Below, piece after piece: positions 17,141-32,556 of a DNA stretch of 64,000 nt. A model generated the notes under the pieces. The model saw only the letters and a program-made list of their open reading frames with translations. It made no database searches and was not told the origin of the DNA. The position numbers and the translations under genes were made by a program. Source of the stretch: an uncultured Thermoplasmata archaeon (lineage in GTDB: Archaea > Thermoplasmatota > Thermoplasmata > Halarchaeoplasmatales > Halarchaeoplasmataceae); NCBI GenBank assembly GCA_964462425.1, contig CAYWYD010000004.1, positions 12,173 through 76,172 of the forward strand, given 5' to 3'. Numbering within the stretch: the first letter of the stretch is position 1; every line of letters starts with the position of its first letter.

Positions 17141-17608
17141 CTAATCATCATCCAATTCTCGAGTCATCACCTTTTTTTTCTCGTGGAACTCCTGCTTCTC
17201 GTAGAATTCCAAAGCTCTTTCATTTTCGGACAGCGTTTCCAATTTCATTATGTCTACACCGTCCTCCTTCGCATCCAATCTTTCCTTCTCCATGAGTTCT
17301 TCGCCGATCCCCTGTCCAAAGTGATCTGGGTGTATAACTACAGTAAGGATCTCCCTGACTTTATCGGAACTCACCACATCTTGGAATGTGGTGGAGTGCA
17401 AAAATCCGAGGATTCTCTCCTCTCCTTCCTCTTCATCGAAAGCACCTATCATCCTATCGTTCACGATCCGGTGCTGTAGGAATTTTTTTAGAGATCTTTC
17501 ATCATAAGAGATGCCGGCATCGTCCCATACGGGTCCCATAGATGTTTTTTTGAGTTCGACTATCTTCGGGATGTCCTCTCCCTTGATCCTGCGAAGATTC
17601 AGCTGCAC
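17141..17608 (-). CDS. GNAT family N-acetyltransferase
   Basis: Acetyl-CoA binding motif VVIHPDHFGQGIGEELM (Q/RxxGxG/A). Confidence 0.75.
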   Translation of the reverse strand: MQLNLRRIKGEDIPKIVELKKTSMGPVWDDAGISYDERSLKKFLQHRIVNDRMIGAFDEEEGEERILGFLHSTTFQDVVSSDKVREILTVVIHPDHFGQGIGEELMEKERLDAKEDGVDIMKLETLSENERALEFYEKQEFHEKKKVMTRELDDD

Positions 17609-18805: not shown

Positions 18806-18850
18806 GTGAGTTCACTTCGTTCTCGAGAGGTCCTGTAGTCCGTTTTTAGC

Positions 18851-20692
18851 TCATTCGATAAATCTCATCCTGAGCCTGTACTCGTTGTATTGCCGTTTCT
18901 TTTCTATATCGTATCCCATCTTTTCGAAAACACCCAGCATCTTTTTATTGTCGGCTAGCACTTCAGCAGTGAATCCGTACAGACCCTGACCCTTCGCTAT
19001 AACAGTAAGGTGTTCGAGAAGTGCAGTGCCTATACCCCGCCCCTGATATTCATCCCTCACCATCACCGAGACCTCCGCTACGTTCTGGCCTTCTTTGATC
19101 CTGTAATCCGCCTCAGCTACCATCCTGTCCGGACCTTCGATCTCAGGATCTATCACGACGATAGCCATCTCTTTATTATAATTTATCTGCACGAACTCTT
19201 GTCTTCTTTCATGCGGCATGTCTTTACGGGTGCTCATGAACCGCTTGTACCTGCTCTCGTCCGAGAGCGAGTAAAAGAGATCTTTCAATAATTCATCGTC
19301 CGTGGGCTTCATCGGTCTGAAAAGATATTCTTTACCCTCTATCTCTTTATAGTCCTCGTATTCATCGGGATACCTTCCTCCTTCTCCAGCAACCAACATC
19401 TGGTCTTCATAGACGAGATCGTGTTCTTTAGCTTCTTTCAGCAGCTTCTCCCTGAATTTCGGGTGGGCTATATTGATAAGCTCCATAGCGCGCTGCCTAA
19501 TGTTCTTTCCCTTGAGATAAGCCAAACCGTATTCCGTGACGATATACTCGACGTCTCCCCTAGTGGTCACCACACCGGCTCCTTCATCCAAGGAGGGTAC
19601 TATCCTAGAGACCTCGCCGTCCTGAGCCGTGGAAGACAATGCGATTATCGATTTCCCGTCTTCGGCGTAACCTGCGCCCCGCATGAAATCCGCGTGACCA
19701 CCGATCCCGCTGTAGAAACTGTAGCCGAGAGAATCTGCGCAGACCTGTCCAGTGAGATCTACCTGTAAAGCCGTGTTTATAGCGGTCATCTTGTAGTTCT
19801 TAGCGATAGTGAACGGATCATTCGTATAATCAGTAGGGTGAAGTTCGATCTCGGGGTTATCATCTACGAACTCATAAAGATCTTTGGTTCCCATCAAGAA
19901 AGATGCGATGTTCTTACCGGGGTTGATGCTCTTCTGTTTGTTCGTTATAGTCCCGTTCTGGATCAATTCCGCGAGATCCTCGGAAAGCATCTCCGTATGT
20001 ATGCCCAGATTTTCCTTTTCATCGAGATGAGATAGTAAAGCGTTGGGGATCTCCCCATAACCCACCTGAAGGGTGGCCCCGTCTTCTATCAAGGGACTAA
20101 CGTTTTCGGCTATCTTTTTTGCCTTCTCCGTAGGGACTATCGGATCGAATTCCAAAAGTTCCTCCTCGTGATGAACGATGTGATCCACATCGTCCACGTG
20201 GATAAAGGCGTCTCCGTGCACTCTCGGCATATTCGGGTTGACCTGAGCGATGACCATCTTAGAGTTCTGTACCGCAGCACGTATTATATCGACCGCGATC
20301 CCGAAACTCATCCACCCGTGTTTGTCCGGCGGCGAGACCTGTACAAGTGAGGCGTCGAGAGGTATCCTACCATTTTTGAAAAGTTTTGGAATATCTCTCA
20401 TAAATATAGGGGTGTAATCGGCCCTTCCTTTAGCGACCGCATCCCTGGTATTGTCGTCTACGAAAAAAGCGTTATGTCTGAAACGATCTTTGAATTTATC
20501 TTCCGTATAAGGCGCAACACCTAAAGTCTGGATGTGAAAAATCTCAGTATCATAAAATTGATCGGCAAGGCCCATAAGTTCTTTCACGAGATACTGGGGT
20601 TCGGACGCACCCGAACCTACAAAGATCCTATCTCCTCTCCCTATATTCTTCAATGCCTTTTCGGCCTCTACATAATCAACGTCATATGGCAT
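18851..20692 (-). CDS. acetyl-CoA hydrolase/transferase family protein fused to a C-terminal GNAT acetyltransferase domain
   Basis: The first roughly 430 aa match the Ach1/CoA-transferase family (GSGASEPQ..., ...SGIGGHADFMRGA..., EYIVTEYG). The C-terminal roughly 170 aa form a GNAT domain (VMVRDEYQGRGIGTALLEHL). Confidence 0.8.
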   Translation of the reverse strand: MPYDVDYVEAEKALKNIGRGDRIFVGSGASEPQYLVKELMGLADQFYDTEIFHIQTLGVAPYTEDKFKDRFRHNAFFVDDNTRDAVAKGRADYTPIFMRDIPKLFKNGRIPLDASLVQVSPPDKHGWMSFGIAVDIIRAAVQNSKMVIAQVNPNMPRVHGDAFIHVDDVDHIVHHEEELLEFDPIVPTEKAKKIAENVSPLIEDGATLQVGYGEIPNALLSHLDEKENLGIHTEMLSEDLAELIQNGTITNKQKSINPGKNIASFLMGTKDLYEFVDDNPEIELHPTDYTNDPFTIAKNYKMTAINTALQVDLTGQVCADSLGYSFYSGIGGHADFMRGAGYAEDGKSIIALSSTAQDGEVSRIVPSLDEGAGVVTTRGDVEYIVTEYGLAYLKGKNIRQRAMELINIAHPKFREKLLKEAKEHDLVYEDQMLVAGEGGRYPDEYEDYKEIEGKEYLFRPMKPTDDELLKDLFYSLSDESRYKRFMSTRKDMPHERRQEFVQINYNKEMAIVVIDPEIEGPDRMVAEADYRIKEGQNVAEVSVMVRDEYQGRGIGTALLEHLTVIAKGQGLYGFTAEVLADNKKMLGVFEKMGYDIEKKRQYNEYRLRMRFIE

Positions 20693-20744
20693 GATGATCC
20701 TCCCCGTAAATTCTATCGGATACCTTTAAAGGTTCCGTTGTATC

Positions 20745-21773
20745 TCATATCTCGATATCTAACCTAGGAGCTACCTCGTCTTTAATATTTTTGATCTTGA
20801 AGTCGTCTTCGATGGTGGTGATGGTCTCCATCTCTTCTATCCTTCTAGCGGCTTCGTAAGTATCCAAGGGTACCGATATCAAAGGTATATTTGCTCTATC
20901 GGCTCTCGATATTATATTGCTCGGCGGGATGATATCGTTTGTCAAAACTAGACCGGAGGTACCTTCATCCAGTGCAGCAAGGATTATATCGGTTCTGTCT
21001 CCACCGGTGACGATCAACTTTCGACTCTCCTGAAATGCTGGACTCCTCACCATCTCATCGGCGCTCATAGCCCCTACATAAATATTTTCGACTATATTAT
21101 CCAAACCGTCCTGTCCAGCCACGACTTTTCCGAAGAGCATGTCGCTTATAAAGCTCATCCTGGTGAGATCGAGGCTAGATATCTCCGGGATTATGCCGAG
21201 CACTTCTAGACCTAGGTCATCTATATCTTCGACGATGAAATCTTTCGCCTCTTCTACAGAATCGACGCGGTTCAAAACCACTCCCCGCAGGTCCGCCCCC
21301 ATCTTTTCGAAGTACTGTGTCGCGGTGGTCAGTTTGTCCAAGACCTCGGTATCGCTGTCCGAGGAGACGAGTATCACTTCAGAACCCGTCATCTTCGAAA
21401 GAGAGACGGGGTCGAGATTTATCGAAGAGCCGAATCCCCAGTGCTTCCCTGTTTCTATTATGAGACCTTCCTTCTCCTCGGATAGCTCTTCTATCCTCTC
21501 CTGGAGCTTTTTCTCTATGGTGTCTTTCTGGTAAGCGTATTTTATCTTAGAATGGTCGAACCCGATACAGAACTTTTCGTAATCTGTTTCCAGTGAAAGT
21601 ACCTTCTTGAACAATTTAGCGTCATAGTCAATGAGTCTCTTTTTCTTGTATATCGGCCTGTCACCGAAGGGTTTGAAATAACTTAGAGGGCTGTCTTCTC
21701 CAAGAGCTAATCCCAAACCGATAGTAGTTTTTCCCGCATCTTTTTCCGTCGAAGATATAATGAGATTTTTCAT
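20745..21773 (-). CDS. PtaN-like protein: CobQ/BioD-type P-loop domain + DRTGG domain (homologue of the phosphotransacetylase N-terminal regulatory region)
   Basis: P-loop SSTEKDAGKTTIGLGL. DRTGG signature LIVTGGDRTDIILAAL. Confidence 0.7.
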   Translation of the reverse strand: MKNLIISSTEKDAGKTTIGLGLALGEDSPLSYFKPFGDRPIYKKKRLIDYDAKLFKKVLSLETDYEKFCIGFDHSKIKYAYQKDTIEKKLQERIEELSEEKEGLIIETGKHWGFGSSINLDPVSLSKMTGSEVILVSSDSDTEVLDKLTTATQYFEKMGADLRGVVLNRVDSVEEAKDFIVEDIDDLGLEVLGIIPEISSLDLTRMSFISDMLFGKVVAGQDGLDNIVENIYVGAMSADEMVRSPAFQESRKLIVTGGDRTDIILAALDEGTSGLVLTNDIIPPSNIISRADRANIPLISVPLDTYEAARRIEEMETITTIEDDFKIKNIKDEVAPRLDIEI

Positions 21774-23956
21774 TTCATATCACCACTTTTAAGATTAATC
21801 GCAACGTCTACAGACTTACATCCCTTACCTTGATTTAGGGCTTTTATAGGATTTAAATCTATCTCGGAGATAGCATCTACTTGGTCCATCAGTAGAGAGG
21901 TTCTATGTACGGTTTCCGCTAGAGCGTCGAGATCCTTTCTTTTTTGGCCTCTAGCCCCGACCAAGACAGGGAAGGCGTTTATCTCTCCTATCATCCTCTT
22001 AGCTTCTCTACCAGTTATAGGCGCGACCCTGAATTCGACATCTTCCAATATCTCCACGTAAACTCCTCCCAGCCCGAACATCACAACCGGTCCAAATGAC
22101 CCGTCGGTGGTTCCTCCAATTATGACTTCCTCTCCCTCCTCGACCATCTCCGCCACCGAGATGCCTTTGATATGTGCGTTGGGATATTTGTTCCTGCAGT
22201 TCGAATATATCGCCTGATACGCGTCGATAACTTCCTCTTTATTTTGAAGATCAAGTGCGAGCCCTCCAGCATCGCTCTTGTGTACTATGTCTTCGGAAAC
22301 CACCTTTAAAACAACTGGATAGCCGATCTCTTCCGCGGTCTCGACACACTCCTCTAGACTGTGGACGACCTTTCCGTCAGCCATGGGGATACCCGCTAGG
22401 TCCAATATGCGCCTCGCTTCATCTTCCAAGAGAGTAGTTCTTCCTTCATCGATAATCGGTTCCAGTATATCCTTTATCCCCTCGAAGTCCATATCGTCGG
22501 GTATTTCGAGAGGCGGCATCTTTTCTCTTCTTTCTATAAATCTTTTTTTCCGGAAGAGAGCACCCATCGAACTTAGGGCGTCTTCAGTTTCGACAAAGGC
22601 GGGAACCTCGTTTTTGTGCAGGTACTCCACGCACTCGTCGACGAACTCACCGCCGCTGAAGGTGAAAACCATCGGTTTCTCTTCTTTATATTCCTGATGA
22701 AGTTCTTCCATGACCCGGGCGGTCTCCATGGGATCGGTTGTGCCAGTCTCGCAGTACAGCCCGATGACCGCGCCGACCTCGTCGCTCTCTAAAGCGGCTC
22801 TCATCGCCCTTTCGTACTCCTCTCTCCCCGCTTGTCCTGTAATATCTATCGGATTCTTTGTGGAGCCGAAAGGAGGTATACTGTCTTCAAAGGTCTCTTT
22901 CAAGAATGTTTGATCGTCTAAGAGTTTAACCCCATAGTCCTCAGCCGCGTCGGTGGCTAAAACACCTATGCCCCCGCCGTTAGTTATTATGACTGTTTTC
23001 TCATTCTGTGGAAGTGGTGTGCTGCTTAAAGTTCTAGACCAAGAGAAAGCTTCACGAAGATCGTTTGCTCGAAGAACACCTCCCTGTTTGAAGGCCGAGG
23101 AAAAGATTTTATCGCTGCCGGCTAAAGAACCGGTATGAGAAGCTACGGCGGTCGCCCCTTTCTCCGACCTTCCGGCTTTAAGAGCGACAACAGCCTTCTC
23201 TTTAGATATCTCTTTAACGGTCTCAAGGAACTCTCTGCCGTTATCCAAACCCTCCATATATATCATTATGACGTCGGTCAACGAGTCGTGGGCGAAGTAT
23301 TCGAGAAGGTCTATATCGTCGATGTCTGATTTGTTTCCAACGCTGACGATAGAAGAAAGTCCGAGATGCTGCTGAGAGGTCATCCCTATCATGGCGATAC
23401 CGAGAGCGCCGCTCTGGGAGATTAATGCTATGTTTCCTTTGCGGACGTCGGTAGGTCCGAAGGTAGCATTAAGCTCGTTACTACCCGAATATACACCGAA
23501 CACGTTGGGTCCAAGCAAGCGTATCCCGTGCTCTTCCGCTACCTCGACGAGTTCACGTTCCATCTTGTCCTCTCCGATCTCGGAAAAACCGGATGAAATT
23601 ATGATCGCATGCTCGATATCCTTCTCTCCGCATTTCTCCAAAACACCTTTAACGGCCTTAGCAGGCACGACGATGATCGCGAGGTCAACACCATCTGGAA
23701 TCTCATCGAGAGAAGTTTTAAACTCCATGCCTAGAGCTTCCCCGCCTTTGAGATTAACGGGATATATATCTCCCTCGTAGTCTGAATTTACTACGTTATG
23801 AAGAAGAGTGTGACCAACTTTTCCTTCTTTAGAAGAGGCACCGATTATAGCTATTGAACTCGGATTAAATAGACCCTCGAGAGGACGTTCTTGGGAAGAC
23901 ATCGAAAAGGATGAAAAAAGAGGTTGGTAATTAATTTTTCGTGAATTCGAACCCAT
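21770..23956 (-). CDS. ADP-forming acetyl-CoA synthetase / NDP-forming acyl-CoA synthetase (fused alpha-beta)
   Basis: CoA-binding domain (SIAIIGASSKEGKVGHTLLHNV), succinyl-CoA-ligase-like domain, and a C-terminal ATP-grasp domain (GYPVVLKVVSEDIVHKSDAGGLALD). The start may be the internal MSSQERPLEG. Confidence 0.85.
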   Translation of the reverse strand: MGSNSRKINYQPLFSSFSMSSQERPLEGLFNPSSIAIIGASSKEGKVGHTLLHNVVNSDYEGDIYPVNLKGGEALGMEFKTSLDEIPDGVDLAIIVVPAKAVKGVLEKCGEKDIEHAIIISSGFSEIGEDKMERELVEVAEEHGIRLLGPNVFGVYSGSNELNATFGPTDVRKGNIALISQSGALGIAMIGMTSQQHLGLSSIVSVGNKSDIDDIDLLEYFAHDSLTDVIMIYMEGLDNGREFLETVKEISKEKAVVALKAGRSEKGATAVASHTGSLAGSDKIFSSAFKQGGVLRANDLREAFSWSRTLSSTPLPQNEKTVIITNGGGIGVLATDAAEDYGVKLLDDQTFLKETFEDSIPPFGSTKNPIDITGQAGREEYERAMRAALESDEVGAVIGLYCETGTTDPMETARVMEELHQEYKEEKPMVFTFSGGEFVDECVEYLHKNEVPAFVETEDALSSMGALFRKKRFIERREKMPPLEIPDDMDFEGIKDILEPIIDEGRTTLLEDEARRILDLAGIPMADGKVVHSLEECVETAEEIGYPVVLKVVSEDIVHKSDAGGLALDLQNKEEVIDAYQAIYSNCRNKYPNAHIKGISVAEMVEEGEEVIIGGTTDGSFGPVVMFGLGGVYVEILEDVEFRVAPITGREAKRMIGEINAFPVLVGARGQKRKDLDALAETVHRTSLLMDQVDAISEIDLNPIKALNQGKGCKSVDVAINLKSGDMK

Positions 23957-23960
23957 CGGC

Positions 23961-25124
23961 TTATTCTTCTTCCAGTTTCTCCTCTAGTTCCTCTATCCTC
24001 TCTTTCAGTTCCTCTATCTCTTCTTCTTTTTCTTTTCTGGTCGGAGCCAACATGTCTTGGTAGCCTTCTTTGACGGAATCCAGCGCCTTCTCGATCATGC
24101 CCGTATAGTCTTCCTCTATTTTTTCCCTAAGTTCCTCGAACTTTTTCAACATCTCGGGTTTCTCTTTACCCATCTCTTTCCAGAAAGCCTCGTAAAGATG
24201 ATCGTGCTCTTCGAATCCTTTTGCCAATCGCTCTTCGATTTCCTCCGATATGGAGGACCACATCTCTTCCATACCTTCCATCTCTCCGGCGTGTTCGACC
24301 GCCATCGCCGTCAGTTCTTCGGTGAACTCCTCTTTGAACTCGTCCCATGTCTCGTAGACCATCTCTTCCCTGTCCTCCATGAAGGTCCTAGCATCTTCCA
24401 GTTCTTCCCTGATCTCTTCGACCATGTCGAACCAAAGAGGATATAGGTCCTTGAGGTCTTCGTTGGGATTCGCTATCATCCGACGACTTTTCTTCGAATG
24501 ATCCTTGATGATATCCAAGATATTGTCTTTCTTCAACTTCAGTTCTATCGGGATCTCGGAAAGGTGCAGGTTCATCTCTTTCATGAAGCCTTTCCACAGC
24601 TCATTCAACTTTTCAACTTCTTCCCGTGGTATGTTAGTGTCTTCCAACGCATCTATATTCTTTTGGAATTTTCTCGTCCTCTCTTTCCACATCTCCTCTA
24701 CGTCCTCCCAGTATTTTTGAGGAGATATCCTGAAATCCTTGAATCCTTTTTCTACTTCTTCCTGGAGATCTTCCCAGAATTCTTCCATGTCGGCCGTATC
24801 TCCCGAGGTGAAGGTCATCAGTAATTTCGAAGGAGAGAAAAGGTCTTCCATGGAACCTTTCTCTTCACCACTCTCTACCTCGCTCTTCTCTTCTTCATCG
24901 GCTTCTATCTCTTCCTGGATATCCTCCGAGATTATCTTCTCGGCCAGCTCATTTTTTGTCCACGTTGATTTTGCCTCGACACCGGCATCTTTTAAGAGTG
25001 CCAGCATCTCGTCTTTTAAAAATTCATCATCTAACGCTTCTTTAAGCCCATCTTCTTCTTTTTCCTCGTCATACGTGCTTATGAATCTCTTTCTCAATTT
25101 ATCTATATCTGTCATCAATACCAC
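23961..25124 (-). CDS. hypothetical highly acidic coiled-coil protein (387 aa)
   Basis: E/K/D-rich heptad-like sequence throughout (EEIEELKERIEELEEKLEEE at the C-terminus). No domain recognised. Only 4 bp upstream of the ACD gene. Confidence 0.55.
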   Translation of the reverse strand: MVLMTDIDKLRKRFISTYDEEKEEDGLKEALDDEFLKDEMLALLKDAGVEAKSTWTKNELAEKIISEDIQEEIEADEEEKSEVESGEEKGSMEDLFSPSKLLMTFTSGDTADMEEFWEDLQEEVEKGFKDFRISPQKYWEDVEEMWKERTRKFQKNIDALEDTNIPREEVEKLNELWKGFMKEMNLHLSEIPIELKLKKDNILDIIKDHSKKSRRMIANPNEDLKDLYPLWFDMVEEIREELEDARTFMEDREEMVYETWDEFKEEFTEELTAMAVEHAGEMEGMEEMWSSISEEIEERLAKGFEEHDHLYEAFWKEMGKEKPEMLKKFEELREKIEEDYTGMIEKALDSVKEGYQDMLAPTRKEKEEEIEELKERIEELEEKLEEE

Positions 25125-25182
25125 TCCTCTATCTGCTACATATGATGTAAAAGATGTTTAAATACTTTTTCAATAAGAAATC

Positions 25183-25620
25183 TTATTCCTCTTCGACAGG
25201 ACATTCCTCGTAGCTGCAGGAAGGGATCTCGTTTCCGTGTGGACAGGTAGGAGGTGCTCCCAACCTATCACATATCTCGTCCACCATCCCCGTGTCGAAG
25301 ATGTGTTCCAATTCACATGCTTTCTCGTGGATTTCTTCCTTCGGGATGGTAAAGAACTCGTCCAAAAATACTTCGAGGACTCTATGTGTCCTGACTATCC
25401 TTTTACCACCTTTCCTACCTTTCTCGGTCAGTTCCACGCCGTAATAGGGACGGTATTCTATGAGATCTTCTTCATCCAATTTTTGAAGTACTTCGGTGAC
25501 GGAAGGAGACGAGATGCCGAGATGTTCGGCTATCTGACCGGTCTTTATCTTGTCCTCTTCTCTATTTGAAGAGAGCTTGTAAAGGGTCTCTAGGTACTCC
25601 TCTTTGGTTTCTTTGTTCAT
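25183..25620 (-). CDS. DtxR/MntR-family metal-dependent transcriptional repressor
   Basis: N-terminal HTH (EEYLETLYKLS...IKTGQIAEHLGISSPSVTEVLQKLDEEDLIEY) plus metal-binding/dimerisation domain (LTEKG...RTHRVLEVFL). The start is set at internal MNKETKEE so the gene does not overlap the tRNA. Confidence 0.8.
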   Translation of the reverse strand: MNKETKEEYLETLYKLSSNREEDKIKTGQIAEHLGISSPSVTEVLQKLDEEDLIEYRPYYGVELTEKGRKGGKRIVRTHRVLEVFLDEFFTIPKEEIHEKACELEHIFDTGMVDEICDRLGAPPTCPHGNEIPSCSYEECPVEEE

Positions 25621-25680: not shown

Positions 25681-25755
25681 TAGCGGGGAGTGGATTTGAA
25701 CCACTGATCTCCGGGTTATGAGCCCGACGGAATCTCCTGGCTATCCTACCCCGCT
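25681..25755 (-). tRNA. tRNA-Met (anticodon CAU), initiator-like
   Basis: Reverse complement AGCGGGGTAGGATAGCCAGGAGATTCCGTCGGGCTCATAACCCGGAGATCAGTGGTTCAAATCCACTCCCCGCTA folds as a cloverleaf. It has a 7-bp acceptor stem with an A1:U72 pair, a GGG:CCC anticodon stem with a CTCATAA loop, a TTCAAAT T-loop and discriminator A. No CCA is encoded. Confidence 0.8.
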
Positions 25756-26584: not shown

Positions 26585-28288
26585 TTAGTCCCGCTTGAAC
26601 CATTTCTCCATATCTCTTTCCGTAAAACTGACGATGGTCGGTCTTCCATGAGGGCATGTGAAGGGATTCTCCGTTTTTCCCAGGTCCTCTAGAAGCTCTT
26701 TAGCCTTTGTTATCGAGAGTTGATCGCCCGCCGTAACCGACGAATGACAGGCCATGTACTTGATCATCTCCTCTCTCCTCTCGTCCAGGCTGTTCTCTTT
26801 CTGCTCTATAAGTTCGTCTAATATCGAATGCAGCACCTCTTTTTCCTGCACCTCTCCGAAAAGGACCGGGATACCTCTGATCCTGAAAGTCGTCTTACCG
26901 AAATGATCTAGGTCGAATCCCAGTTTCTCCAGCAGTTCCTCGTTCGCCCGCAGTACCGCGGCCTCCTTCGGCTGAAGTTCTACCGTCCGGGGAGAAACGA
27001 GCCGTTGACTGTCCACCTCGTCTTTCATTTTGCTTTTCAAGTCTTCATAATTTATCCTCTCGTGGGCCGCATGCTGATCGACGACCGCCATGCCCGTTGG
27101 AGTCTCTGCTATGATGTAAGTGTCCTTCAAGGTCCCGACCACCCTCATATGTGAGAGCTTGGATTCTTCCACTTCGCTCTCCTCGTCCATCTCCAACCTG
27201 GACTGGGTGGTCATGTCTTCTTTTTTCTCCTCTTTCTCTTCCTCGGCACTAGATACCGTTTCTTTCTTTTTCCCTTCTGCATTCCCGGAAGGTACGAGAT
27301 CTTCTTCGAGAAGAGCGGAATTGACAGCTTCAGAGATCTTTTCCCTCACATTCTCCTTTTCGAATAACCTGATCTTGATCTTTGTCGGGTGAACGTTGAC
27401 GTCTATCTTTTTTTGATCTATCTCGAGGTCGAGAAAAGCTAGCGGGTATCTCCCCTTCTTCAGCAGAGTATCGTATCCGTCGACGATGCCGTCTTTCAAA
27501 GCCTTATTCCTCACGTACCTCGAGTTGACGTAAGTGAATATATGCTTTCGATTCGACCGAGTGATCTCCGGTTTACTGACATAACCTTTGAGCTTGAAAC
27601 CTTCCTCTTCCTTCTCCACTTCCACCATCTTTTTGGCTATCTCTTTCCCGTAGATCGATTTTATATTCTCGAGCATAGAACCCGACTTGGGAACAAAAGT
27701 GAGTTCGTTCCCGTTATGCTCTAACGAAAATTGAACATCGGGATTCGCTATAGCATATCGAGTCACGACCTCGCTGATGTGGGCCAGTTCCGTATTAGTT
27801 TTCTTCAGATATTTTTTTCTAGCAGGTGTATTGTAAAAGAGGTCTTCGACTTTGATCGTAGTACCTACCGCGCAGCCGGTCTCTTCGACTTCCTGGGTGT
27901 CGCCTCCGTGAATAACAAACTGAGTTCCCTCCAGCTGATCCTCGGTTCTAGTCACCGTCATGACTTTTGAGACTGCGGCGATACTGGGAAGCGCTTCCCC
28001 TCTGAAACCCAGGCTCGAGAGATCGTCTAGATCTTCGATCTCGTCTATCTTGCTGGTCGCGTGTTTCTTAAAGGCAAGTTTTACTTCCTCTCTCTCCATC
28101 CCTCTCCCGTTATCGCTGACCTTTATCTTTTTCTTGCCCCCTTCTTCCACTTCGACTTTGATCTCGTCGGCCCCGGCATCTAGAGAATTTTCTATCAGCT
28201 CTTTGACCACTGAAGCCGGCCTCTCGATGACTTCGCCGGCAGCTATCTGGTTCACGGTATTTTCCGATAAGATCTTGATCCTGCTCAT
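26585..28288 (-). CDS. mutL: DNA mismatch repair protein MutL
   Basis: GHKL ATPase N-terminus MSRIKILSENTVNQIAAGEVIERPASVVKELIENSLDAGA. The C-terminal dimerisation domain carries endonuclease-like motifs. It starts 2 bp after the MutS stop codon. Confidence 0.9.
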   Translation of the reverse strand: MSRIKILSENTVNQIAAGEVIERPASVVKELIENSLDAGADEIKVEVEEGGKKKIKVSDNGRGMEREEVKLAFKKHATSKIDEIEDLDDLSSLGFRGEALPSIAAVSKVMTVTRTEDQLEGTQFVIHGGDTQEVEETGCAVGTTIKVEDLFYNTPARKKYLKKTNTELAHISEVVTRYAIANPDVQFSLEHNGNELTFVPKSGSMLENIKSIYGKEIAKKMVEVEKEEEGFKLKGYVSKPEITRSNRKHIFTYVNSRYVRNKALKDGIVDGYDTLLKKGRYPLAFLDLEIDQKKIDVNVHPTKIKIRLFEKENVREKISEAVNSALLEEDLVPSGNAEGKKKETVSSAEEEKEEKKEDMTTQSRLEMDEESEVEESKLSHMRVVGTLKDTYIIAETPTGMAVVDQHAAHERINYEDLKSKMKDEVDSQRLVSPRTVELQPKEAAVLRANEELLEKLGFDLDHFGKTTFRIRGIPVLFGEVQEKEVLHSILDELIEQKENSLDERREEMIKYMACHSSVTAGDQLSITKAKELLEDLGKTENPFTCPHGRPTIVSFTERDMEKWFKRD

Positions 28289-28290
28289 CT

Positions 28291-30915
28291 TCAATCCTCC
28301 AGTTCCTTTTTCAACTTCCAAAGCTCGTTCATCGCATCCATAGGCGTCATATTCTCCACGTCGGTCTTCTTCAACCTCTCTATCACGGGATGTGAATCCG
28401 TGCTCGTTTCCGTTTCTTTCTCTTCCTCAACGTCGAAGACCATCTGTTTTAGCTGGGGACCTCCCCGCTCTTTCATCTCTATCGTGTGGTCCTCTTCGAT
28501 CTGTTTCAAAACTTCGCCGGACCTTTCCACCACGGGCTCGGGCAGACCGGCGAGAGAAGCGACGTGGACACCATAACTTTCGTCGGTACTCCCATCTCTG
28601 ACCTTTCGCAGAAAAGTGATGCCGTCTCCCGTGTCTTTGGCAGCGACATGCAAATTTTTTACGCTGTCCAGCGATCTTTCCAGCTCCGTTATCTCGTGAT
28701 AGTGTGTGGCGAACAGCGTTTTAGCTTTGATCTCCGTGCTTATGTATTCAGTTACGGCCCACGCTATACTGAGGCCATCGAAGGTACTCGTGCCGCTCCC
28801 GATCTCATCCAGCAGTATAAGGCTGTTCTTAGATGCGTTGTGTAAAATATTTGCGAGTTCGACCATCTCCACCATGAAAGTGGAACGACCCTTGGTCAGA
28901 TCGTCTAAGGCTCCCACCCTGGTAAATATCCTATCCACCACTCCTATAGTAGCTTCCTCCGCTGGAACGAAGCAGCCGACCTGGGCCATGAGAGTTATAA
29001 GGGCAACCTGTCTCATATACGTTGATTTGCCGGACATGTTAGGGCCGGTTATGATAAGAAAGCGGTTATTGACATCGTCGAGATACGCGTTGTTGGGAAC
29101 AAAATTTTCCTGGATAGTGTTCTCGACGACAGGATGTCGTCCCTCTTTTATGTCTATCTTTCCGCCGGGGAAGACCTCCGGTCTGTTGTAATTATATCTG
29201 ATCGCCATATGAGCGAATGTCGCCAGGACATCCAATTCGGCGATAGCTTCCGAAGTCTGTTGGAACCTGTCTGCCTCCTCGCCGACCTTTCCCCTCACCT
29301 TTTTGAAAAGTTCGTATTCATAGGCCTCCATCTTCTCTTCCGAGCTTATTATCTCTTCTTCCTTCTCCTTCAATTCTTCTGTATAATACCTCTCGGCGTT
29401 CTTCAAGGTCTGCTTTCTAGAGTAGTTCTCCGGCACATTGTCCGTCTTGCTTTTCGGCACTTCTAGATAATAACCGTGTACCTTGTTGTATCCCACTTTC
29501 AGTTTATCTATGCCGGTCCTTTCTCTCTCCCTCTCTTCCAGTGAATTTATCCATTCCTTCCCCTCCTTCGCCTTTCTTTTCAGCTCGTCTAGTTCTTCAT
29601 CGAATCCATCCTTTATTATCCCGCCCTCTTTGATCGTAGCGGGTGGATCCTCCACTATAGCGGAGTCGATCTTCTCTCTTATGTCTGTAAGGGAATCTAT
29701 CCTTTCCTCCACCTCTCCAAGTTTGCTTTTTTCCTCTTCATTCTCTTCTTCCGATATATTCTCTTTCAGCATCTCCTTCACGGGCTTTATCTTCGAGAGA
29801 GCGTCTTCTATCGCCAGGAGATCTCTCGCGTCGGCGTTGCCGTAGACCACTCTACTGATCAATCTTTCCAGGTCGTAAAGGCCGTCGAGTTCGTCTCTAA
29901 GATCGTCACGAAGGAAAATGCTTTCATTCAACACCTCTACAGCATCAAGCCTTCTCTCTATCCGGTCGACGTCGAGCAGAGGCTGCTGAAGCCAATTTCT
30001 CATCTTCCTGGAACCCATCGCCGTAACGGTATCATCGAGTATATTCAGCAAAGTGCCTTCCTTGCTCCTGTCTCTTAAGCTTCTGAATATCTCGAGGTTT
30101 TTCAAGGTGGTGGCGTCGAGCGTCATGTACCGGTCGGGAGAGTAGAAACGTAAACGTCTGATGTTGTCCATAGCTCTTTTCTGAGTCTCTTTGAGATAGT
30201 CGAGAGCCGCGCCAGCGGCCTTCACCGCGTCGTCCTTACCTTCCAATCCAAGTGGAGACAAAGAATCGGTGCCAAAGTGATCTAGAAGATTATCTTTAGC
30301 GGTGTAAAACGCTTCACTTTTATGGGTGTGGATCATCATCTCGTGTTCTTGTTCAAGTTCAGATAGGAAATCCTCGTCTTCGTACTTTGACTTCGGTAGT
30401 ATACACTCGGTCGGCTCGTACCTTAGAAGTTCAGATAACATATCACTCTTATCTTCAACTTCGGTCACGAAAAAGTCACCGGTAGAAACGTCTACGGCCG
30501 CTATTCCGTACTTTTCTTCACCGTGGATACACATCAAAAAGTTGTTTCTAGCCCCTTCTATCATCCCCTCGTCTATCACGGTCCCCGGAGTGACCACTCT
30601 CATCACCTCTCTATCCACTATCCCGGTCGTTTCACTTGGATCTTGAGTCTGCTCGGCTATCGCCACGGTATAACCATTGTTGATCAACCGCTGTAGGTAG
30701 CTCTCTACGGAATGATAGGGGACTCCCGCCATAGGTATCGGATCGTCTTCATCCTTATCTCTCGTGGTCAAAGTTATATCTAATTCATCGGAAGCCGTTT
30801 CTGCATCCTCCTCGAACATCTCGTAGAAGTCGCCCATCCTGAAGAATACGATGGAATCGGGATAGTTGTCTTTTATCTCATAATACTGCTTCATCATCGG
30901 CGTGGGGTCGCTCAA
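28291..30915 (-). CDS. mutS: DNA mismatch repair protein MutS (bacterial MutS1 type)
   Basis: N-terminal mismatch-binding TPMMKQYYEIK..GDFYEMF, Walker A ITGPNMSGKSTYMRQV, and ...LLDEIGSGTSTFDG... . Confidence 0.9.
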   Translation of the reverse strand: MSDPTPMMKQYYEIKDNYPDSIVFFRMGDFYEMFEEDAETASDELDITLTTRDKDEDDPIPMAGVPYHSVESYLQRLINNGYTVAIAEQTQDPSETTGIVDREVMRVVTPGTVIDEGMIEGARNNFLMCIHGEEKYGIAAVDVSTGDFFVTEVEDKSDMLSELLRYEPTECILPKSKYEDEDFLSELEQEHEMMIHTHKSEAFYTAKDNLLDHFGTDSLSPLGLEGKDDAVKAAGAALDYLKETQKRAMDNIRRLRFYSPDRYMTLDATTLKNLEIFRSLRDRSKEGTLLNILDDTVTAMGSRKMRNWLQQPLLDVDRIERRLDAVEVLNESIFLRDDLRDELDGLYDLERLISRVVYGNADARDLLAIEDALSKIKPVKEMLKENISEEENEEEKSKLGEVEERIDSLTDIREKIDSAIVEDPPATIKEGGIIKDGFDEELDELKRKAKEGKEWINSLEERERERTGIDKLKVGYNKVHGYYLEVPKSKTDNVPENYSRKQTLKNAERYYTEELKEKEEEIISSEEKMEAYEYELFKKVRGKVGEEADRFQQTSEAIAELDVLATFAHMAIRYNYNRPEVFPGGKIDIKEGRHPVVENTIQENFVPNNAYLDDVNNRFLIITGPNMSGKSTYMRQVALITLMAQVGCFVPAEEATIGVVDRIFTRVGALDDLTKGRSTFMVEMVELANILHNASKNSLILLDEIGSGTSTFDGLSIAWAVTEYISTEIKAKTLFATHYHEITELERSLDSVKNLHVAAKDTGDGITFLRKVRDGSTDESYGVHVASLAGLPEPVVERSGEVLKQIEEDHTIEMKERGGPQLKQMVFDVEEEKETETSTDSHPVIERLKKTDVENMTPMDAMNELWKLKKELED

Positions 30916-30976
30916 GTCTTCTTACCTCCGGGATCTTGAAACTTCTACTATCACTATCGAGCGATTGTAGAGGAAG

Positions 30977-31774
30977 TTATAAACTTTTTTTGAAGTTTCG
31001 ATCTTCTCTCAGTTCATAGATCTTGGTCTTCACGTCCTCTATGACCTGAGAATACGGGACCACTTTCGGTATTAATTTCTCTATGTCTCTCAGATACTCT
31101 TCTTTAGACGGGTACGAATCCCAAGAGAAATCATCCTCAAGGTCATATCCCTCTAAAAGGGTCTCCAATTTCTTCTCGAACAATTCAGGAGAAACTGTTA
31201 TACCACTCGTCAAAAGATACCAAACATCGTACAGGTCTCTACCTTTAGACCTTGTGAACATAGTGAGGATCTTCTCAACGAGGAGCTCATCTTCATCCAT
31301 GACCTGAACTAGAAATTTCTTCCTAGTCTCAGGATATTCAGAATCTATCAATGTCCATCGTGGTTCCCGCAATGTTCCACCTCTTTCTCCCGCATCAAGT
31401 CTGAATTTATTCTGTGTCTGGTTCGTTCCCTCATATAGGGGGCCGTGAAACCATATTTCACTAGTATAAGCTTTTTCAAACAGCTCTTCCTTGATGAAAC
31501 CGTTTTCGATACCGATCTTTTCAAATCCCATGAGGATGTTTTCCACTTCCTCTTTGAACTGCTCAGGAGCTATTGTCAAATTGAGATCTATATCCTCACT
31601 GAATCGATCTGTTCCGTAGAGATATCTAAGACTGGTTCCTCCTTTGAAAACAGCGCTGTCGTATCTCCTGTAGTAATTGAACAAAAATAACTTTATCAGA
31701 TAATCTTTCTCCTGCTGGTAAAGGTGAAGTGATGTTTTCTTGCTGACATCTTTCAACTTGTCTCGCGATATCAT
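30977..31774 (-). CDS. AbiEii/DUF1814-like nucleotidyltransferase (putative type IV toxin)
   Basis: N-terminal FKGGTSLRYLYGTDRFSEDIDLNL matches the GS and DxD motifs of the AbiEii Pol-beta-like nucleotidyltransferase. 4-bp overlap with the upstream gene. Confidence 0.65.
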   Translation of the reverse strand: MISRDKLKDVSKKTSLHLYQQEKDYLIKLFLFNYYRRYDSAVFKGGTSLRYLYGTDRFSEDIDLNLTIAPEQFKEEVENILMGFEKIGIENGFIKEELFEKAYTSEIWFHGPLYEGTNQTQNKFRLDAGERGGTLREPRWTLIDSEYPETRKKFLVQVMDEDELLVEKILTMFTRSKGRDLYDVWYLLTSGITVSPELFEKKLETLLEGYDLEDDFSWDSYPSKEEYLRDIEKLIPKVVPYSQVIEDVKTKIYELREDRNFKKSL

Positions 31775-32556
31775 AAAAAGTCCTCAATATCTCTATTTAT
31801 CTTTATCTTCCAATCGCTGTTATGAGCTTCTACAGGGCCTCCATTAGGATCCAACAGGATAAAGCTCTTTGATCTATTTTCCTTCAGCTTGTTGATCAGT
31901 TCCTCATCAACTAAACCGAGCCTCTCTAAAAGAAAACCCATCCGAGAGACCAACGATTTATTACCAAATCTGATTATATATTCCCCAAATGTATCTATAT
32001 CCAGCCCATCATATCCGTTTTTCAAGCATTTTATATATTCTTCCAGACCTCCACATCTGTCCGGAATGAACAAGGAATCCACCAAAGCCTTTTCTTCATC
32101 GGCTATTATCACACCATCCCGATCATCATATCCAAAAAATCTTTCTGGCTTAAAGGTCGATATCTCCACCTTTTTCTCTCTTACTTTCATATCATGGAAC
32201 TGCTTAGTCGAGACTAACTGTATAAGATTGACCTGCTGTTCAGTAAACCCGTGATATGATAGTGCGTTCCAAAAACTGATGTAAGATGGCTTCACAGCGT
32301 CAGTCATAACCTCGAATATCCTATCGAAGAGATTTTCCTCGAGTGTATAGGTGTCCTTTTTTATCCTGACGATATGTCCTTTTTTATTCAGAGTCGAAAG
32401 CGTATTGTGGATACGAGTTGTTTTCCAACCGGACAAGGCCTTTATTTCTTCTACACCGAAGATGAGAAGATCCTCGGACCTTATAGATTCTACCACATAT
32501 GCTTCGTTCTCGGATAAGGAGCTATAATTTATACCCGGATTTTGTTGTTTATCCAT
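31771..32556 (-). CDS. AbiEi-like putative antitoxin / wHTH transcriptional regulator
   Basis: N-terminal winged-helix-like region (...EEIKALSGWKTTRIHNTLSTLNKKGHIVRIKKDTYTL) and its position immediately upstream of the AbiEii-like gene. Confidence 0.5.
   Translation of the reverse strand: MDKQQNPGINYSSLSENEAYVVESIRSEDLLIFGVEEIKALSGWKTTRIHNTLSTLNKKGHIVRIKKDTYTLEENLFDRIFEVMTDAVKPSYISFWNALSYHGFTEQQVNLIQLVSTKQFHDMKVREKKVEISTFKPERFFGYDDRDGVIIADEEKALVDSLFIPDRCGGLEEYIKCLKNGYDGLDIDTFGEYIIRFGNKSLVSRMGFLLERLGLVDEELINKLKENRSKSFILLDPNGGPVEAHNSDWKIKINRDIEDFL

What the first reader, a model, noticed from the sequence alone, without database searches (positions are those of the whole stretch)
18851..25620. 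Acetyl-CoA node cluster: ADP-forming acetyl-CoA synthetase, PtaN-like DRTGG protein and an acetyl-CoA hydrolase/transferase-GNAT fusion, downstream of a DtxR regulator
Bacterial protein acetyltransferase Pat is an NDP-forming acyl-CoA-synthetase-like domain fused to GNAT. Here a GNAT domain is instead fused to an Ach1/CoA-transferase-family domain. It sits beside a stand-alone ACD and a PtaN-like protein; PtaN is the allosteric N-domain of bacterial phosphotransacetylase. The arrangement suggests acetyl-CoA/acetate sensing linked to protein acetylation, or an unusual acetate-switch variant. An acidic coiled-coil protein and a DtxR-type repressor lie immediately upstream on the same strand.
Basis: partly seen in the sequence, partly recalled or inferred. 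Interest (0 to 1): 0.6.

Follow-up and report, generated by a model that had tools for sequence, protein, structure and literature searches.

The report
CoA-transferase–GNAT, ACD, PtaN operon
A halophilic archaeon carries a tight three-gene operon (an ATP-forming acyl-CoA synthetase, a phosphotransacetylase-N-domain-like ATP-binding protein, and a CoA-transferase fused to a Pat-type protein acetyltransferase domain) that is conserved in hundreds of uncultured anaerobic archaea and bacteria and that I could not find described, so it probably links acetate/acyl-CoA energy metabolism to protein acetylation in a new way.

Summary

The fusion is real and both halves look functional. All 81 examined family members are fused. 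The CoA-transferase glutamate (E234), the GxGGxxDF motif, the GNAT acetyl-CoA loop and the Pat catalytic glutamate (E540) are conserved. The GNAT is specifically Pat-type.

The main new result is a conserved, translationally coupled three-gene operon: CoA-transferase-GNAT, ACD and PtaN-like.
- It occurs in 61 of 74 evaluable genome loci. At least 583 species genomes carry the GNAT tail.
- Starting instead from PtaN-like genes in metagenomes, ACD is adjacent in 72 of 74 loci and the fusion is present in 32 of 35.
- Hosts span many archaeal and bacterial phyla, and all those seen are uncultured.
- The ACD keeps both catalytic histidines. The PtaN-like protein keeps a BioD-type GKT P-loop that E. 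coli Pta has lost.
- Where ACD and PtaN are missing, AMP-forming Acs, the classical Pat substrate, is often the neighbour.

The coiled-coil and DtxR genes are not conserved neighbours and probably have their own promoters.

Best reading: a CoA-transferase/ACD cycle that interconverts acyl-CoA and ATP, with built-in Pat-like lysine acylation control and a nucleotide-sensing subunit. This GNAT architecture is not among the five recognised types of bacterial lysine acetyltransferase. The function is inferred, not shown.

The parts
18851..20692 (-). CoA-transferase-GNAT fusion, 613 aa. Residues 1-~430 are a 4-hydroxybutyrate/butyryl-CoA:acetate CoA-transferase-family domain. Residues ~441-613 are a Pat-type GNAT cassette starting at the invariant Y441-P442.
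   Evidence: Pfam and NCBIfam scans. PDB sequence hits: 9vag, 3eh7 and 3gk7 for the CoA-transferase; 4nxy, 9it0 and 4ava for the GNAT. AF2 model plus Foldseek: 3gk7 (target TM-score 0.85) and 4u5y (0.86). E234, GxGGxxDF, Q/HxxGxG and E540 are conserved.
20745..21773 (-). PtaN-like protein, 342 aa: a BioD-like P-loop domain followed by a DRTGG domain. Its start overlaps the ACD stop by 4 nt.
   Evidence: Pfam AAA_26 + DRTGG. NCBIfam PRK05632 profile positions 2-364. BLASTP to E. coli Pta residues 5-366. AF2 pLDDT 90.3; Foldseek hits BioD 1dts and AF1212 2ioj. GKT and GDR invariant in 50 of 50 sequences.
21770..23956 (-). ADP-forming acyl-CoA synthetase (ACD) with fused alpha-beta subunits. 728 aa as an ORF; the likely start is ATG 23902 (710 aa).
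   Evidence: Pfam. PDB hits: 8wzu at 508 bits, 4xyl at 428 bits, Pat 9it0 at 277 bits. H274 (SHTGS) and H559 (HKSD) invariant in 53 of 53 sequences. A TATA-like AAAATTAATTA lies about 25 nt upstream of 23902.
20693..20744 (-). Intergenic spacer between PtaN-like and the fusion, with a Shine-Dalgarno-like GGGGAGGA 8 nt before the fusion ATG.
   Evidence: Read directly from the sequence. This fits a polycistronic ACD-PtaN-fusion transcript.
23961..25124 (-). Acidic coiled-coil protein (387 aa), a neighbour that is probably not part of the module.
   Evidence: No Pfam or PDB match. Only 12 relatives among 1.84 billion representatives. Absent next to the module in relatives. It has its own TATTTAAA element upstream and a T-tract downstream.
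25183..25620 (-). DtxR/MntR-family metalloregulator (145 aa), a neighbour that is probably not part of the module.
   Evidence: Pfam Fe_dep_repress + Fe_dep_repr_C; NCBIfam MntR-like. It is not a conserved neighbour: only 1 of 80 genome loci has a DtxR gene close upstream of the fusion, and 1 of 80 metagenome loci has one just downstream of PtaN-like.
25681..25755 (-). tRNA-Met (CAT) immediately upstream of the DtxR gene.
   Evidence: ARAGORN and Rfam.

Best explanation
The unit is a three-gene operon, ACD - PtaN-like - (CoA-transferase-GNAT), and it forms a self-regulating acyl-CoA/acetate/ATP node.

1. Shown: the ACD keeps both phosphohistidine residues. Inferred from the family: it therefore catalyses acyl-CoA + ADP + Pi <-> acid + ATP + CoA.
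2. Shown: the N-terminal domain of the fusion is an intact AbfT/But-family class I CoA-transferase. Inferred: it exchanges CoA between acetate/acetyl-CoA and another short-chain acid. Together with the ACD this gives a CoA-transferase/synthetase cycle analogous to the SCACT/SCS acetate-forming, ATP-yielding pathway.
3. Shown: the C-terminal cassette is a Pat-type GNAT with its catalytic Glu and acetyl-CoA loop. Inferred: it uses the local acyl-CoA pool to acylate a lysine on a conserved protein partner. The most likely targets are the co-encoded ACD or, where present, AMP-forming Acs. This would give feedback control of acyl-CoA synthesis and consumption, as Pat does for Acs.
4. Shown: the PtaN-like protein has a BioD-like fold with an invariant GKT P-loop and a DRTGG domain, and it is translationally coupled to the ACD. 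Inferred: it is a nucleotide-binding regulatory or scaffold subunit of the ACD, playing the role that the N-domain plays in class II phosphotransacetylase.

The DtxR and coiled-coil genes are lineage-specific neighbours, not parts of the unit.
For: - Domain identities.
- Catalytic motifs are invariant across the family: CoAT E234 in 72/72, ACD H274 and H559 in 53/53, PtaN GKT in 50/50, and the GNAT Q/HxxGxG and E540.
- Operon conservation: 47 canonical loci (fusion-ACD-PtaN), 13 permuted loci (ACD-PtaN-fusion) and 1 split locus among 80 genome loci. That is 61 of 74 evaluable.
- Stop/start overlaps of -4, -1 or 0 nt are typical.
- Only these three families are conserved neighbours.
- Reciprocal test starting from PtaN-like genes: ACD adjacent in 72/74 and fusion present in 32/35. 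The same triad appears in Anaerolineae and Marinimicrobia.
- AMP-forming Acs carrying the PKTRSGKIMRR acetylation motif lies beside the fusion where ACD/PtaN are absent (L058, L080), and lies near the module in five more loci.
- A CBS-CBS-ACT (AcuB-like) gene is a neighbour in 7 loci.
- The GNAT acceptor-side loop DMPHERxQ is invariant across both domains of life yet has low pLDDT. That pattern fits a conserved protein partner.
- The DRTGG half is most similar to A. fulgidus AF1212. AF1211 is, from my memory of Musfeldt & Schoenheit 2002, a characterised ACD.
- Precedents: Pat types I and II pair this GNAT with an ACD-like domain (PMC8556138). A CoA-transferase + NDP-forming synthetase pathway that yields ATP is described in bioRxiv 10.1101/2020.04.13.039867.
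Against: - There are no biochemical data for any family member. No cultured host was seen among the top hits.
- The acylation target is unknown. No deacetylase is a conserved neighbour.
- Thirteen of 74 evaluable loci carry the fusion without ACD/PtaN nearby, so the fusion can act outside the triad.
- The substrates of the ACD and the CoA-transferase cannot be read from sequence. The best hits of both are 4-hydroxybutyrate enzymes, but both score below the NCBIfam cut-offs.
- The Acs and AcuB-like associations are minority cases, and some come from a single lineage.
- The inter-domain geometry of the fusion model is only moderately confident (pTM 0.64).
Confidence: 0.55

Rival explanations
1. 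'Pat in pieces'. The triad is chiefly a signalling acyltransferase complex rather than a catabolic route. The GNAT docks on the separately encoded ACD as it docks on the ACD-like domain within Pat. The ACD and the CoA-transferase serve mainly as catalytic sensors of acyl-CoA, acid, ADP/ATP and Pi. The complex acylates many cellular proteins.
For: The GNAT cassette begins at the same YP boundary as in Pat and in SlPatA. The canonical gene order places the GNAT directly before the ACD, which matches type II Pat domain order. In Syntrophus aciditrophicus all nine ACD genes are weakly expressed (<0.1% of transcripts each, PMC4992975), though I did not show that this organism carries the module. 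One family member adds a receiver domain (P0088).
Against: The ACD keeps every catalytic residue, unlike Pat's domain (PMC8556138). The PatZ N-domain is no closer to module ACDs (245-288 bits) than to other ACDs (301 bits to 8wzu). A sensor role would not obviously require full catalytic competence of two enzymes.
Confidence: 0.2
2. A dedicated pathway for one particular organic acid, such as 4-hydroxybutyrate, butyrate or another short-chain acid. The ACD would act as an ADP-forming acid-CoA ligase and the CoA-transferase as its partner. The GNAT domain would acetylate a small molecule or merely bind acyl-CoA as an allosteric module.
For: The best characterised relatives are ADP-forming 4-hydroxybutyrate-CoA ligase (8wzu; NF045493 at 598 bits) and 4-hydroxybutyrate CoA-transferases (9vag, 3gk7). 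Aldehyde:ferredoxin oxidoreductase is a neighbour in 6 loci.
Against: Both matches are far below the family cut-offs (598 vs 1300 bits; 290 vs 675 bits). No other pathway enzymes, such as dehydratases or dehydrogenases, are conserved neighbours. The GNAT is specifically Pat-type (64 bits to Pat GNATs vs 34 bits to the next solved GNAT), keeps the catalytic Glu, and sits next to Acs in several loci.
Confidence: 0.17
3. A metal-regulated (DtxR/MntR) operon of five genes, in which the coiled-coil protein and the regulator belong to the same functional unit as the three enzymes.
For: All five genes are on the same strand with short gaps of 58 nt and 4-58 nt in the window. A DtxR homologue lies upstream of the fusion in L039, just downstream of PtaN-like in L115, and 8 kb away in L082.
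Against: Neither gene is found beside the module in L001-L019, where the fusion is 79-93% identical to the window's. The coiled-coil family has only 12 relatives in 1.84 billion representatives. TATA-like elements precede the coiled-coil gene and the ACD separately, and a T-tract follows the coiled-coil gene.
Confidence: 0.03

Closest known systems
Pat/PatZ (type I) and SlPatA (type II) protein lysine acetyltransferases
   Same: The GNAT cassette is homologous from the YP boundary through the catalytic Glu (Pat E809 = E540 here) and the acetyl-CoA loop. Among solved structures it is closest to 4nxy/4u5y, 9it0 and 4ava. It is associated with an NDP-forming acyl-CoA synthetase homologue and, in some loci, with AMP-forming Acs.
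   Different: The partner domain in the same polypeptide is a catalytically intact CoA-transferase, not an ACD-like domain. The ACD is a separate gene that keeps both catalytic histidines. A PtaN-like gene is obligatorily linked. None of the five KAT types in PMC8556138 has this architecture.
4-hydroxybutyrate CoA-transferase / butyryl-CoA:acetate CoA-transferase family (AbfT, Cat2, But, RipA)
   Same: Residues 3-427 are about 41-44% identical in structural alignment and share the fold, the HTE glutamate and the GxGGxxDF motif.
   Different: It carries a roughly 175-aa C-terminal Pat-type GNAT. It scores far below the TIGR03948 equivalog cut-off (290 vs 675 bits). The substrate is unknown.
Archaeal ADP-forming acetyl-CoA synthetase (ACD) and ADP-forming 4-hydroxybutyrate-CoA ligase (8wzu)
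   Same: Same five-subdomain organisation, fused alpha-beta, and both catalytic histidines.
   Different: It is below the curated cut-offs of every NCBIfam ACD equivalog. It is embedded in an operon with a GNAT-bearing CoA-transferase and a PtaN-like protein.
N-terminal regulatory domain of class II phosphotransacetylase (E. coli/Salmonella Pta); stand-alone homologues DVU3031 and AF1212
   Same: AAA_26 (BioD-like) + DRTGG, colinear with Pta residues 5-366. A stand-alone AAA+DRTGG protein next to pta-ack is noted in Desulfovibrio (PMC4481167).
   Different: No PTA_PTB catalytic domain. It keeps the GKT P-loop lysine, which E. coli Pta has replaced (GLTS). Its partner is an ACD rather than Pta.
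SCACT/SCS (ASCT/SCS) acetate-forming ATP-yielding cycle; AcsA-AcuA-AcuB-AcuC system of Bacillus
   Same: The pairing of an Ach1-family CoA-transferase with an NDP-forming CoA synthetase matches the SCACT/SCS logic (bioRxiv 10.1101/2020.04.13.039867). A GNAT placed beside its acyl-CoA synthetase, with CBS-ACT neighbours in some loci, recalls acuABC.
   Different: The transferase belongs to the AbfT subfamily and the synthetase is ACD-type, not SCS. The GNAT is Pat-type, not AcuA-type. No deacetylase is linked.

Membership tests
Pat-type protein lysine acetyltransferase (types I/II) | GNAT catalytic domain of the Pat subtype, with the acetyl-CoA loop Q/RxxGxG/A and the catalytic Glu | tested here: met
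   The best solved relatives are Pat GNATs at 64 bits; the next GNAT scores 34 bits. E540 aligns with Pat E809. QGRGIG is present and conserved.
Pat-type protein lysine acetyltransferase (types I/II) | A catalytically inactive NDP-forming acyl-CoA-synthetase-like domain in the same polypeptide | tested here: not met
   The N-terminal domain is AcetylCoA_hydro/AcetylCoA_hyd_C. The ACD is a separate gene with both histidines intact.
Pat-type protein lysine acetyltransferase (types I/II) | Acetylates the conserved lysine of AMP-forming acyl-CoA synthetases | not testable with these tools
   Only association is available: Acs carrying PKTRSGKIMRR lies next to the fusion in L058 and L080 and near the module in 5 more loci.
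Class I CoA-transferase, AbfT/But (acetyl-CoA hydrolase/transferase) family | Two-domain fold with the catalytic glutamate and the GxGGxxDF oxyanion/CoA motif | tested here: met
   Both Pfam domains are present. E234 is invariant in 72/72 and G-x-G-G-x-x-D-F is conserved. Foldseek target TM-score is 0.85-0.92 to AbfT-type structures. That this Glu is the nucleophile rests on my knowledge of the family.
Class I CoA-transferase, AbfT/But (acetyl-CoA hydrolase/transferase) family | Equivalog-level identity to butyryl-CoA:acetate CoA-transferase (TIGR03948) | tested here: not met
   290 bits against a cut-off of 675.
ADP-forming acetyl-CoA synthetase (ACD) | CoA-binding, ligase-CoA and ATP-grasp subdomains, with the phosphohistidine in SHTGS and the second His in HKSD | tested here: met
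   Pfam. H274 and H559 are invariant in 53/53. 508 bits to 8wzu and 428 bits to 4xyl.
ADP-forming acetyl-CoA synthetase (ACD) | Acetate/acetyl-CoA as the physiological substrate | not testable with these tools
   TIGR02717 scores 523 bits against a cut-off of 567, and NF045493 scores 598 against 1300. No equivalog is reached.
Class II phosphotransacetylase (Pta) | N-terminal BioD-like + DRTGG regulatory region | tested here: met
   AAA_26 + DRTGG. PRK05632 profile positions 2-364. BLASTP to E. coli Pta residues 5-366, E 2e-8. Foldseek hits BioD and AF1212.
Class II phosphotransacetylase (Pta) | C-terminal PTA_PTB catalytic domain | tested here: not met
   The protein ends at residue 342 and has no PTA_PTB match.
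DtxR/MntR-controlled operon | Regulator conserved next to the regulated genes | tested here: not met
   DtxR lies close to the module in only 2 of 160 scanned loci (L039, L115). The coiled-coil gene is in none.

The most novel reading that the evidence does not exclude
The CoA-transferase-GNAT protein would be the catalytic core of a previously unrecognised sixth class of prokaryotic protein lysine acyltransferase. It would work as a three-protein machine with a still-active ACD and an ATP-binding PtaN-like subunit. In that machine acyl-CoA interconversion, substrate-level ATP synthesis and protein acylation would be physically coupled. It could also represent the unfused ancestral state from which Pat's enigmatic ACD-like domain and Pta's N-domain were recruited.
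Probability: 0.25. Interest if true: 0.8.

Novelty: new variant of a known kind. Interest (0 to 1): 0.66.

Why it matters
- Pat-type acetyltransferases are the main known enzymatic route of metabolic protein acetylation in bacteria. The role of Pat's dead ACD-like domain, and of the PtaN domain in Pta, is still unclear.
- Here the same GNAT cassette is wired to live versions of those partners: an active ACD and a P-loop-intact PtaN. It is also fused to an active CoA-transferase.
- The operon is shared by hundreds of uncultured anaerobes, including Thermoplasmatota, Bipolaricaulota, Syntrophales/Desulfobacterota, ANME and Methanoperedens relatives, and Asgard archaea.
- If the module couples ATP-yielding acyl-CoA turnover to protein acylation, it is a widespread and unstudied control point of fermentative and syntrophic energy metabolism.
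- It would also give a testable model for how Pat and class II Pta acquired their regulatory domains.

Tried and rejected
1. Frameshift artefact or dead domain. Rejected: the fusion is present in 81 of 81 loci and all catalytic motifs are conserved.
2. DtxR and coiled-coil genes as parts of the unit. Rejected on comparative grounds and on the intergenic signals.
3. The sigma-70 promoter and terminator scan was uninformative for an archaeon. Matches were at or below shuffle expectation.
4. Test of whether Pat's ACD-like domain is specifically related to module ACDs. PatZ residues 1-700 score 245-288 bits against module ACDs, 301 bits against 8wzu and 212+105 bits against Korarchaeum ACD. There is no special affinity, so the 'Pat descends from this module' idea is neither supported nor excluded.
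5. Search for module-specific invariant lysines as candidate acylation sites. The list was obtained but cannot be interpreted without structures or complexes.
6. Literature. Eight full-text searches found no description of a CoA-transferase-GNAT fusion or of an ACD-DRTGG-GNAT operon. The library lacks many subscription papers, so absence is not proof.
8. Attempt to find a cultured host using a second fusion query from a Syntrophaceae MAG. All 120 top hits are environmental.
9. Source contig look-up gave only short fragments.

Full report
**1. What is there**

The region holds five consecutive minus-strand genes.

- 25620..25183 encodes a 145-aa DtxR/MntR-type regulator with Fe_dep_repress and Fe_dep_repr_C domains.
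  - The mechanical ORF extends to 25704, but that extension overlaps a tRNA-Met(CAT) at 25681..25755.
- 25124..23961 encodes a 387-aa very acidic, helical protein with no Pfam, NCBIfam or PDB match.
- 23956..21770 encodes a fused alpha-beta ADP-forming acyl-CoA synthetase (ACD) with CoA_binding_2, Succ_CoA_lig, Ligase_CoA_2 and ATP-grasp_5 domains.
- 21773..20745 encodes a 342-aa AAA_26 + DRTGG protein whose start overlaps the ACD stop by 4 nt.
- 20692..18851 encodes a 613-aa protein with AcetylCoA_hydro, AcetylCoA_hyd_C and a C-terminal GNAT.

**2. The organism**

- DUF2240 ('conserved in archaea') lies next door.
- The closest homologues of the fusion (92% identity) and of the DRTGG protein are from MAGs labelled Candidatus Natronoplasma, Saliniplasma or Thermoplasmatota, taken from hypersaline and soda-lake sediments.
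- The window therefore comes from a halophilic Thermoplasmatota archaeon. This fits the acidic proteins and the 45% G+C.

**3. The fusion is real and both halves look functional**

- Residues 3-427 align with solved 4-hydroxybutyrate CoA-transferases (9vag, 3eh7, 2oas, 3gk7; E 1e-108 to 1e-126).
- The AlphaFold model (pLDDT 78.9) superposes on 3gk7, 2oas and 3d3u with target TM-scores of 0.85-0.92.
- Residues ~441-613 are most similar, among all solved GNATs, to Pat-type lysine acetyltransferases:
  - S. lividans PatA GNAT (4nxy/4u5y) at 64 bits;
  - the 886-aa Pat (9it0), residues 710-867, at 64 bits;
  - mycobacterial Pat (4ava, 4orf) at 53 bits;
  - the next best, unrelated GNAT at 34 bits.
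- Homology to Pat starts at an invariant Tyr-Pro (Y441-P442 = Pat Y710-P711). It runs through the catalytic glutamate (E540 = Pat E809) and the acetyl-CoA loop (QGRGIG).
- In 72 full-length family members:
  - the CoA-transferase glutamate (E234 in GIHTEM) is invariant;
  - GxGGxxDF is essentially invariant;
  - the GNAT Q/HxxGxG loop and the G-F-T-A-E-V-L strand are conserved.
- Every one of 81 loci retrieved through the GNAT tail alone has the CoA-transferase domain fused in frame upstream.

**4. The key finding: a conserved three-gene operon**

In the 80 best loci, tblastn with the window's proteins gave the following:

| Arrangement | Loci |
|---|---|
| Canonical: [CoAT-GNAT] -> ACD -> PtaN-like | 47 |
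| Circularly permuted: ACD -> PtaN-like -> [CoAT-GNAT] (window and its halophilic clade) | 13 |
| ACD-PtaN about 3 kb downstream | 1 |
| Too short on the relevant side to judge | 6 |
| Fusion without ACD or PtaN nearby | 13 |

That is 61 of 74 evaluable loci.

- Gene junctions are typically -4, -1 or 0 nt, which indicates translational coupling.
- All-against-all clustering of every ORF in these loci shows that only these three families are conserved neighbours. The same held in a larger set of 163 loci.
- The reciprocal test started from the PtaN-like protein in metagenome contigs.
  - An ACD lay directly upstream in 72 of 74 evaluable loci.
  - The fusion was present in 32 of 35 loci with enough flank.
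  - Two further look-ups, in Anaerolineae and Marinimicrobia, gave the same triad.
- Hosts include:
  - archaea: Thermoplasmatota, Theionarchaea, Thermococci, Methanoperedenaceae, ANME-1, Methanocrinis, Promethearchaeota and a Halobacteria MAG;
  - bacteria: Bipolaricaulota, Thermotogae, Syntrophales/Thermodesulfobacteriota, Dehalococcoidales, Anaerolineae, Aerophobetes, Spirochaetota, Marinimicrobia, Actinomycetota and others.
- No cultured organism appeared among the top hits of two different fusion queries.

**5. The partners are also catalytically intact**

ACD:
- The phosphohistidine (H274 in SHTGSLAG) and the second histidine (H559 in HKSD) are invariant in 53 of 53 sequences.
- It is closer to bona fide enzymes than to Pat's inactive domain: 508 bits to 8wzu (ADP-forming 4-hydroxybutyrate-CoA ligase) and 428 bits to the 4xyl ACD alpha subunit, against 277 bits to 9it0.
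- It reaches no NCBIfam equivalog cut-off, so the substrate is open.

PtaN-like protein:
- It models with pLDDT 90.3.
- Its N-half superposes on dethiobiotin synthetase (1dts, target TM-score 0.76) and its C-half on A. fulgidus AF1212, a DRTGG protein (2ioj).
- It is colinear with E. coli Pta residues 5-366 and with positions 2-364 of the class II Pta profile. It has no PTA_PTB domain.
- The family has an invariant GKT P-loop (50/50) together with invariant K34, D49/D51 and E107. From my knowledge of BioD, these match its ATP/Mg site.
- E. coli Pta reads GTSVGLTS at the P-loop, so it has lost the lysine.
- The stand-alone protein is therefore likely to bind nucleotide, whereas the Pta N-domain is a degenerate relative.
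- AF1212's locus-tag neighbour AF1211 is, from my memory of Musfeldt & Schoenheit (2002), a characterised ACD. I could not verify that adjacency here.

**6. Clues to what the GNAT acts on**

  - It has ACAS_N, AMP-binding and AMP-binding_C domains and ends in PKTRSGKIMRR, the motif whose lysine Pat acetylates.
- Acs-family genes also lie within a few kb of the full module in L035, L044, L051, L135 and L139.
  - That makes 7 of 163 loci, against roughly one expected by chance. That expectation is my own rough estimate.
- A CBS-CBS-ACT protein, the domain composition of Bacillus AcuB, is a neighbour in 7 loci. Four of these share one synteny, AcuB-like - Usp - fusion - ACD - PtaN ... AOR, and probably represent one lineage.
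- The most conserved stretch of the GNAT, DMPHER[LR]Q at residues 491-498, lies in the alpha1-alpha2 acceptor-side region.
  - It is invariant from archaea to bacteria but modelled with pLDDT below 50.
  - That pattern is expected for a loop that orders on a conserved protein partner.
- No deacetylase is a conserved neighbour, and none is in the window.

**7. The flanking genes are not part of the unit**

- Neither the coiled-coil protein nor DtxR is found beside the module in L001-L019, whose fusions are 79-93% identical to the window's.
- DtxR lies close to the module in two distant loci: L039 (upstream of the fusion) and L115 (just downstream of PtaN-like).
- The coiled-coil family has only 12 relatives among 1.84 billion representative proteins.
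- In the window:
  - a TATA-like TATTTAAA precedes the coiled-coil gene;
  - a T-rich tract follows the coiled-coil gene;
  - AAAATTAATTA lies about 25 nt upstream of the ACD's second ATG (23902). Homologue alignments typically begin just downstream of that ATG, at about residues 16-29;
  - GGGGAGGA precedes the fusion ATG.
- This suggests a separate ACD-PtaN-fusion transcript. It is read by eye and is an inference. The sigma-70 scan was uninformative.

**8. How it most likely works**

Shown:
- Three co-inherited, translationally coupled genes.
- Four catalytic or ligand sites under purifying selection.
- A GNAT of the Pat subtype.

Inferred:
- The ACD and the CoA-transferase form a transferase/synthetase cycle.
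  - Reaction 1: acyl-CoA + acetate -> acid + acetyl-CoA.
  - Reaction 2: acetyl-CoA + ADP + Pi -> acetate + CoA + ATP.
  - The cycle could also run in reverse for acid activation.
- The logic parallels the succinyl-CoA:acetate CoA-transferase / succinyl-CoA synthetase pathway (bioRxiv 10.1101/2020.04.13.039867).
- The fused Pat-type GNAT uses the local acyl-CoA pool to acylate a lysine of a conserved partner, either the ACD or Acs. This would close a feedback loop like Pat-Acs.
- The PtaN-like subunit supplies nucleotide-dependent allosteric control or scaffolding of the ACD, as the N-domain does for class II Pta.

I put this at about 0.55. The main rival (0.2) is that the whole triad is primarily a signalling acyltransferase, a 'Pat in pieces'. 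A dedicated single-acid pathway with a non-KAT GNAT gets about 0.17.

**9. Comparison with what is known**

- The review of bacterial KATs recognises five architectures: ACD-like N-terminal or C-terminal partner; cAMP, ACT or NADP sensor; GNAT alone; and tandem GNAT. None has a CoA-transferase domain (PMC8556138).
- Eight full-text searches found no description of this fusion or of the operon.
- Public annotations are generic: 'GNAT family N-acetyltransferase', 'acyl-CoA hydrolase/RimJ...', 'DRTGG domain-containing protein' and 'AAA family ATPase'.
- The protein works like a Pat-type KAT but fails the architectural definition of Pat types I and II.
- It is a member of the AbfT-type CoA-transferase family at fold and motif level, but not of any curated equivalog.
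- I classify it as a new variant of a known kind.
- My crude test of the idea that Pat descends from this module gave no special affinity. That reading stays speculative.

**10. Verdict**

- The DtxR and coiled-coil context should be dropped.
- Function remains inferred.
- Interest 0.66.
  - For: a widespread, unannotated, mechanistically suggestive module at the acetyl-CoA node that makes the roles of Pat's ACD-like domain and of PtaN testable.
  - Against: there are no experimental data and no cultured host.

Noticed in passing
window 21770-23956 versus L001-L019 and L085-L091: The window's ACD is an outlier. It is 65-68% identical to all ACDs of the halophilic clade, although those are 69-91% identical to each other and the window's fusion is 92% identical to L001/L003. 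Its nearest ACD (73%) is in L090. That suggests a mosaic operon or accelerated evolution.
   Followed up: partly
window 18806-18850; L001 10425-11162, L002 8624-9325 and similar: Most halophilic-clade relatives carry a stand-alone ATP-grasp_5 (ACD-beta-like, ~240 aa) gene just downstream of the fusion. Several also carry a divergent ACD-alpha-like gene upstream, which together amount to a second, split ACD flanking the module. The window has only 45 nt at that position and lacks both. L090, whose ACD is the closest to the window's, also lacks the beta-like gene.
   Followed up: partly
L056, L109, L121, L138 (also L099, L043, L080): A CBS-CBS-ACT protein (AcuB-like domain composition) and universal stress proteins lie directly upstream of the module on the same strand. 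An aldehyde:ferredoxin oxidoreductase lies downstream. Sigma-54/GAF activators and CorA recur near the module in other loci.
   Followed up: partly
P0088: One family member is 783 aa and adds a C-terminal response-regulator receiver domain to the CoA-transferase-GNAT.
   Followed up: no
window 23961-25124: The acidic coiled-coil protein belongs to a tiny family: 12 relatives among 1.84 billion representatives, 8 of them full-length at 374-408 aa. Its function is unknown. It has weak apolipoprotein-like helical-repeat similarity, below the Pfam cut-off.
   Followed up: partly
window 25681-25755: A tRNA-Met(CAT) on the minus strand overlaps the 5' extension of the mechanical DtxR ORF. A TTTATAAAA TATA-like box lies about 45 nt upstream of the tRNA.
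   Followed up: yes
window 17141-17608: A stand-alone 155-aa GNAT lies two genes downstream of the module. It is syntenic in close relatives, together with the DUF2240 and His_biosynth-like genes. It is only 30% identical to the fusion's GNAT over 59 residues, so it is not Pat-type.
   Followed up: partly
window 8713-10751: CoA-biosynthesis genes lie about 8 kb from the module: CoaBC (Flavoprotein + DFP) and an adjacent GHMP-kinase-like gene that may be the archaeal pantoate kinase.
   Followed up: no
window 26585-32556: Bacterial-type MutL and MutS genes in a Thermoplasmatota genome. They are followed by an AbiEii nucleotidyltransferase toxin gene and an upstream 261-aa ORF with no Pfam match, which may be its antitoxin.
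   Followed up: no
window 39320-63936: A run of very large minus-strand genes: a 1301-aa double AAA+ ATPase, a VWA protein, a 2510-aa protein with Big_7/Big_13 Ig repeats and a C-terminal RNA_pol_A_CTD-like match, a 2812-aa S8 subtilase with InlB B-repeats and CARDB, and a 1040-aa InlB-repeat protein.
   Followed up: no
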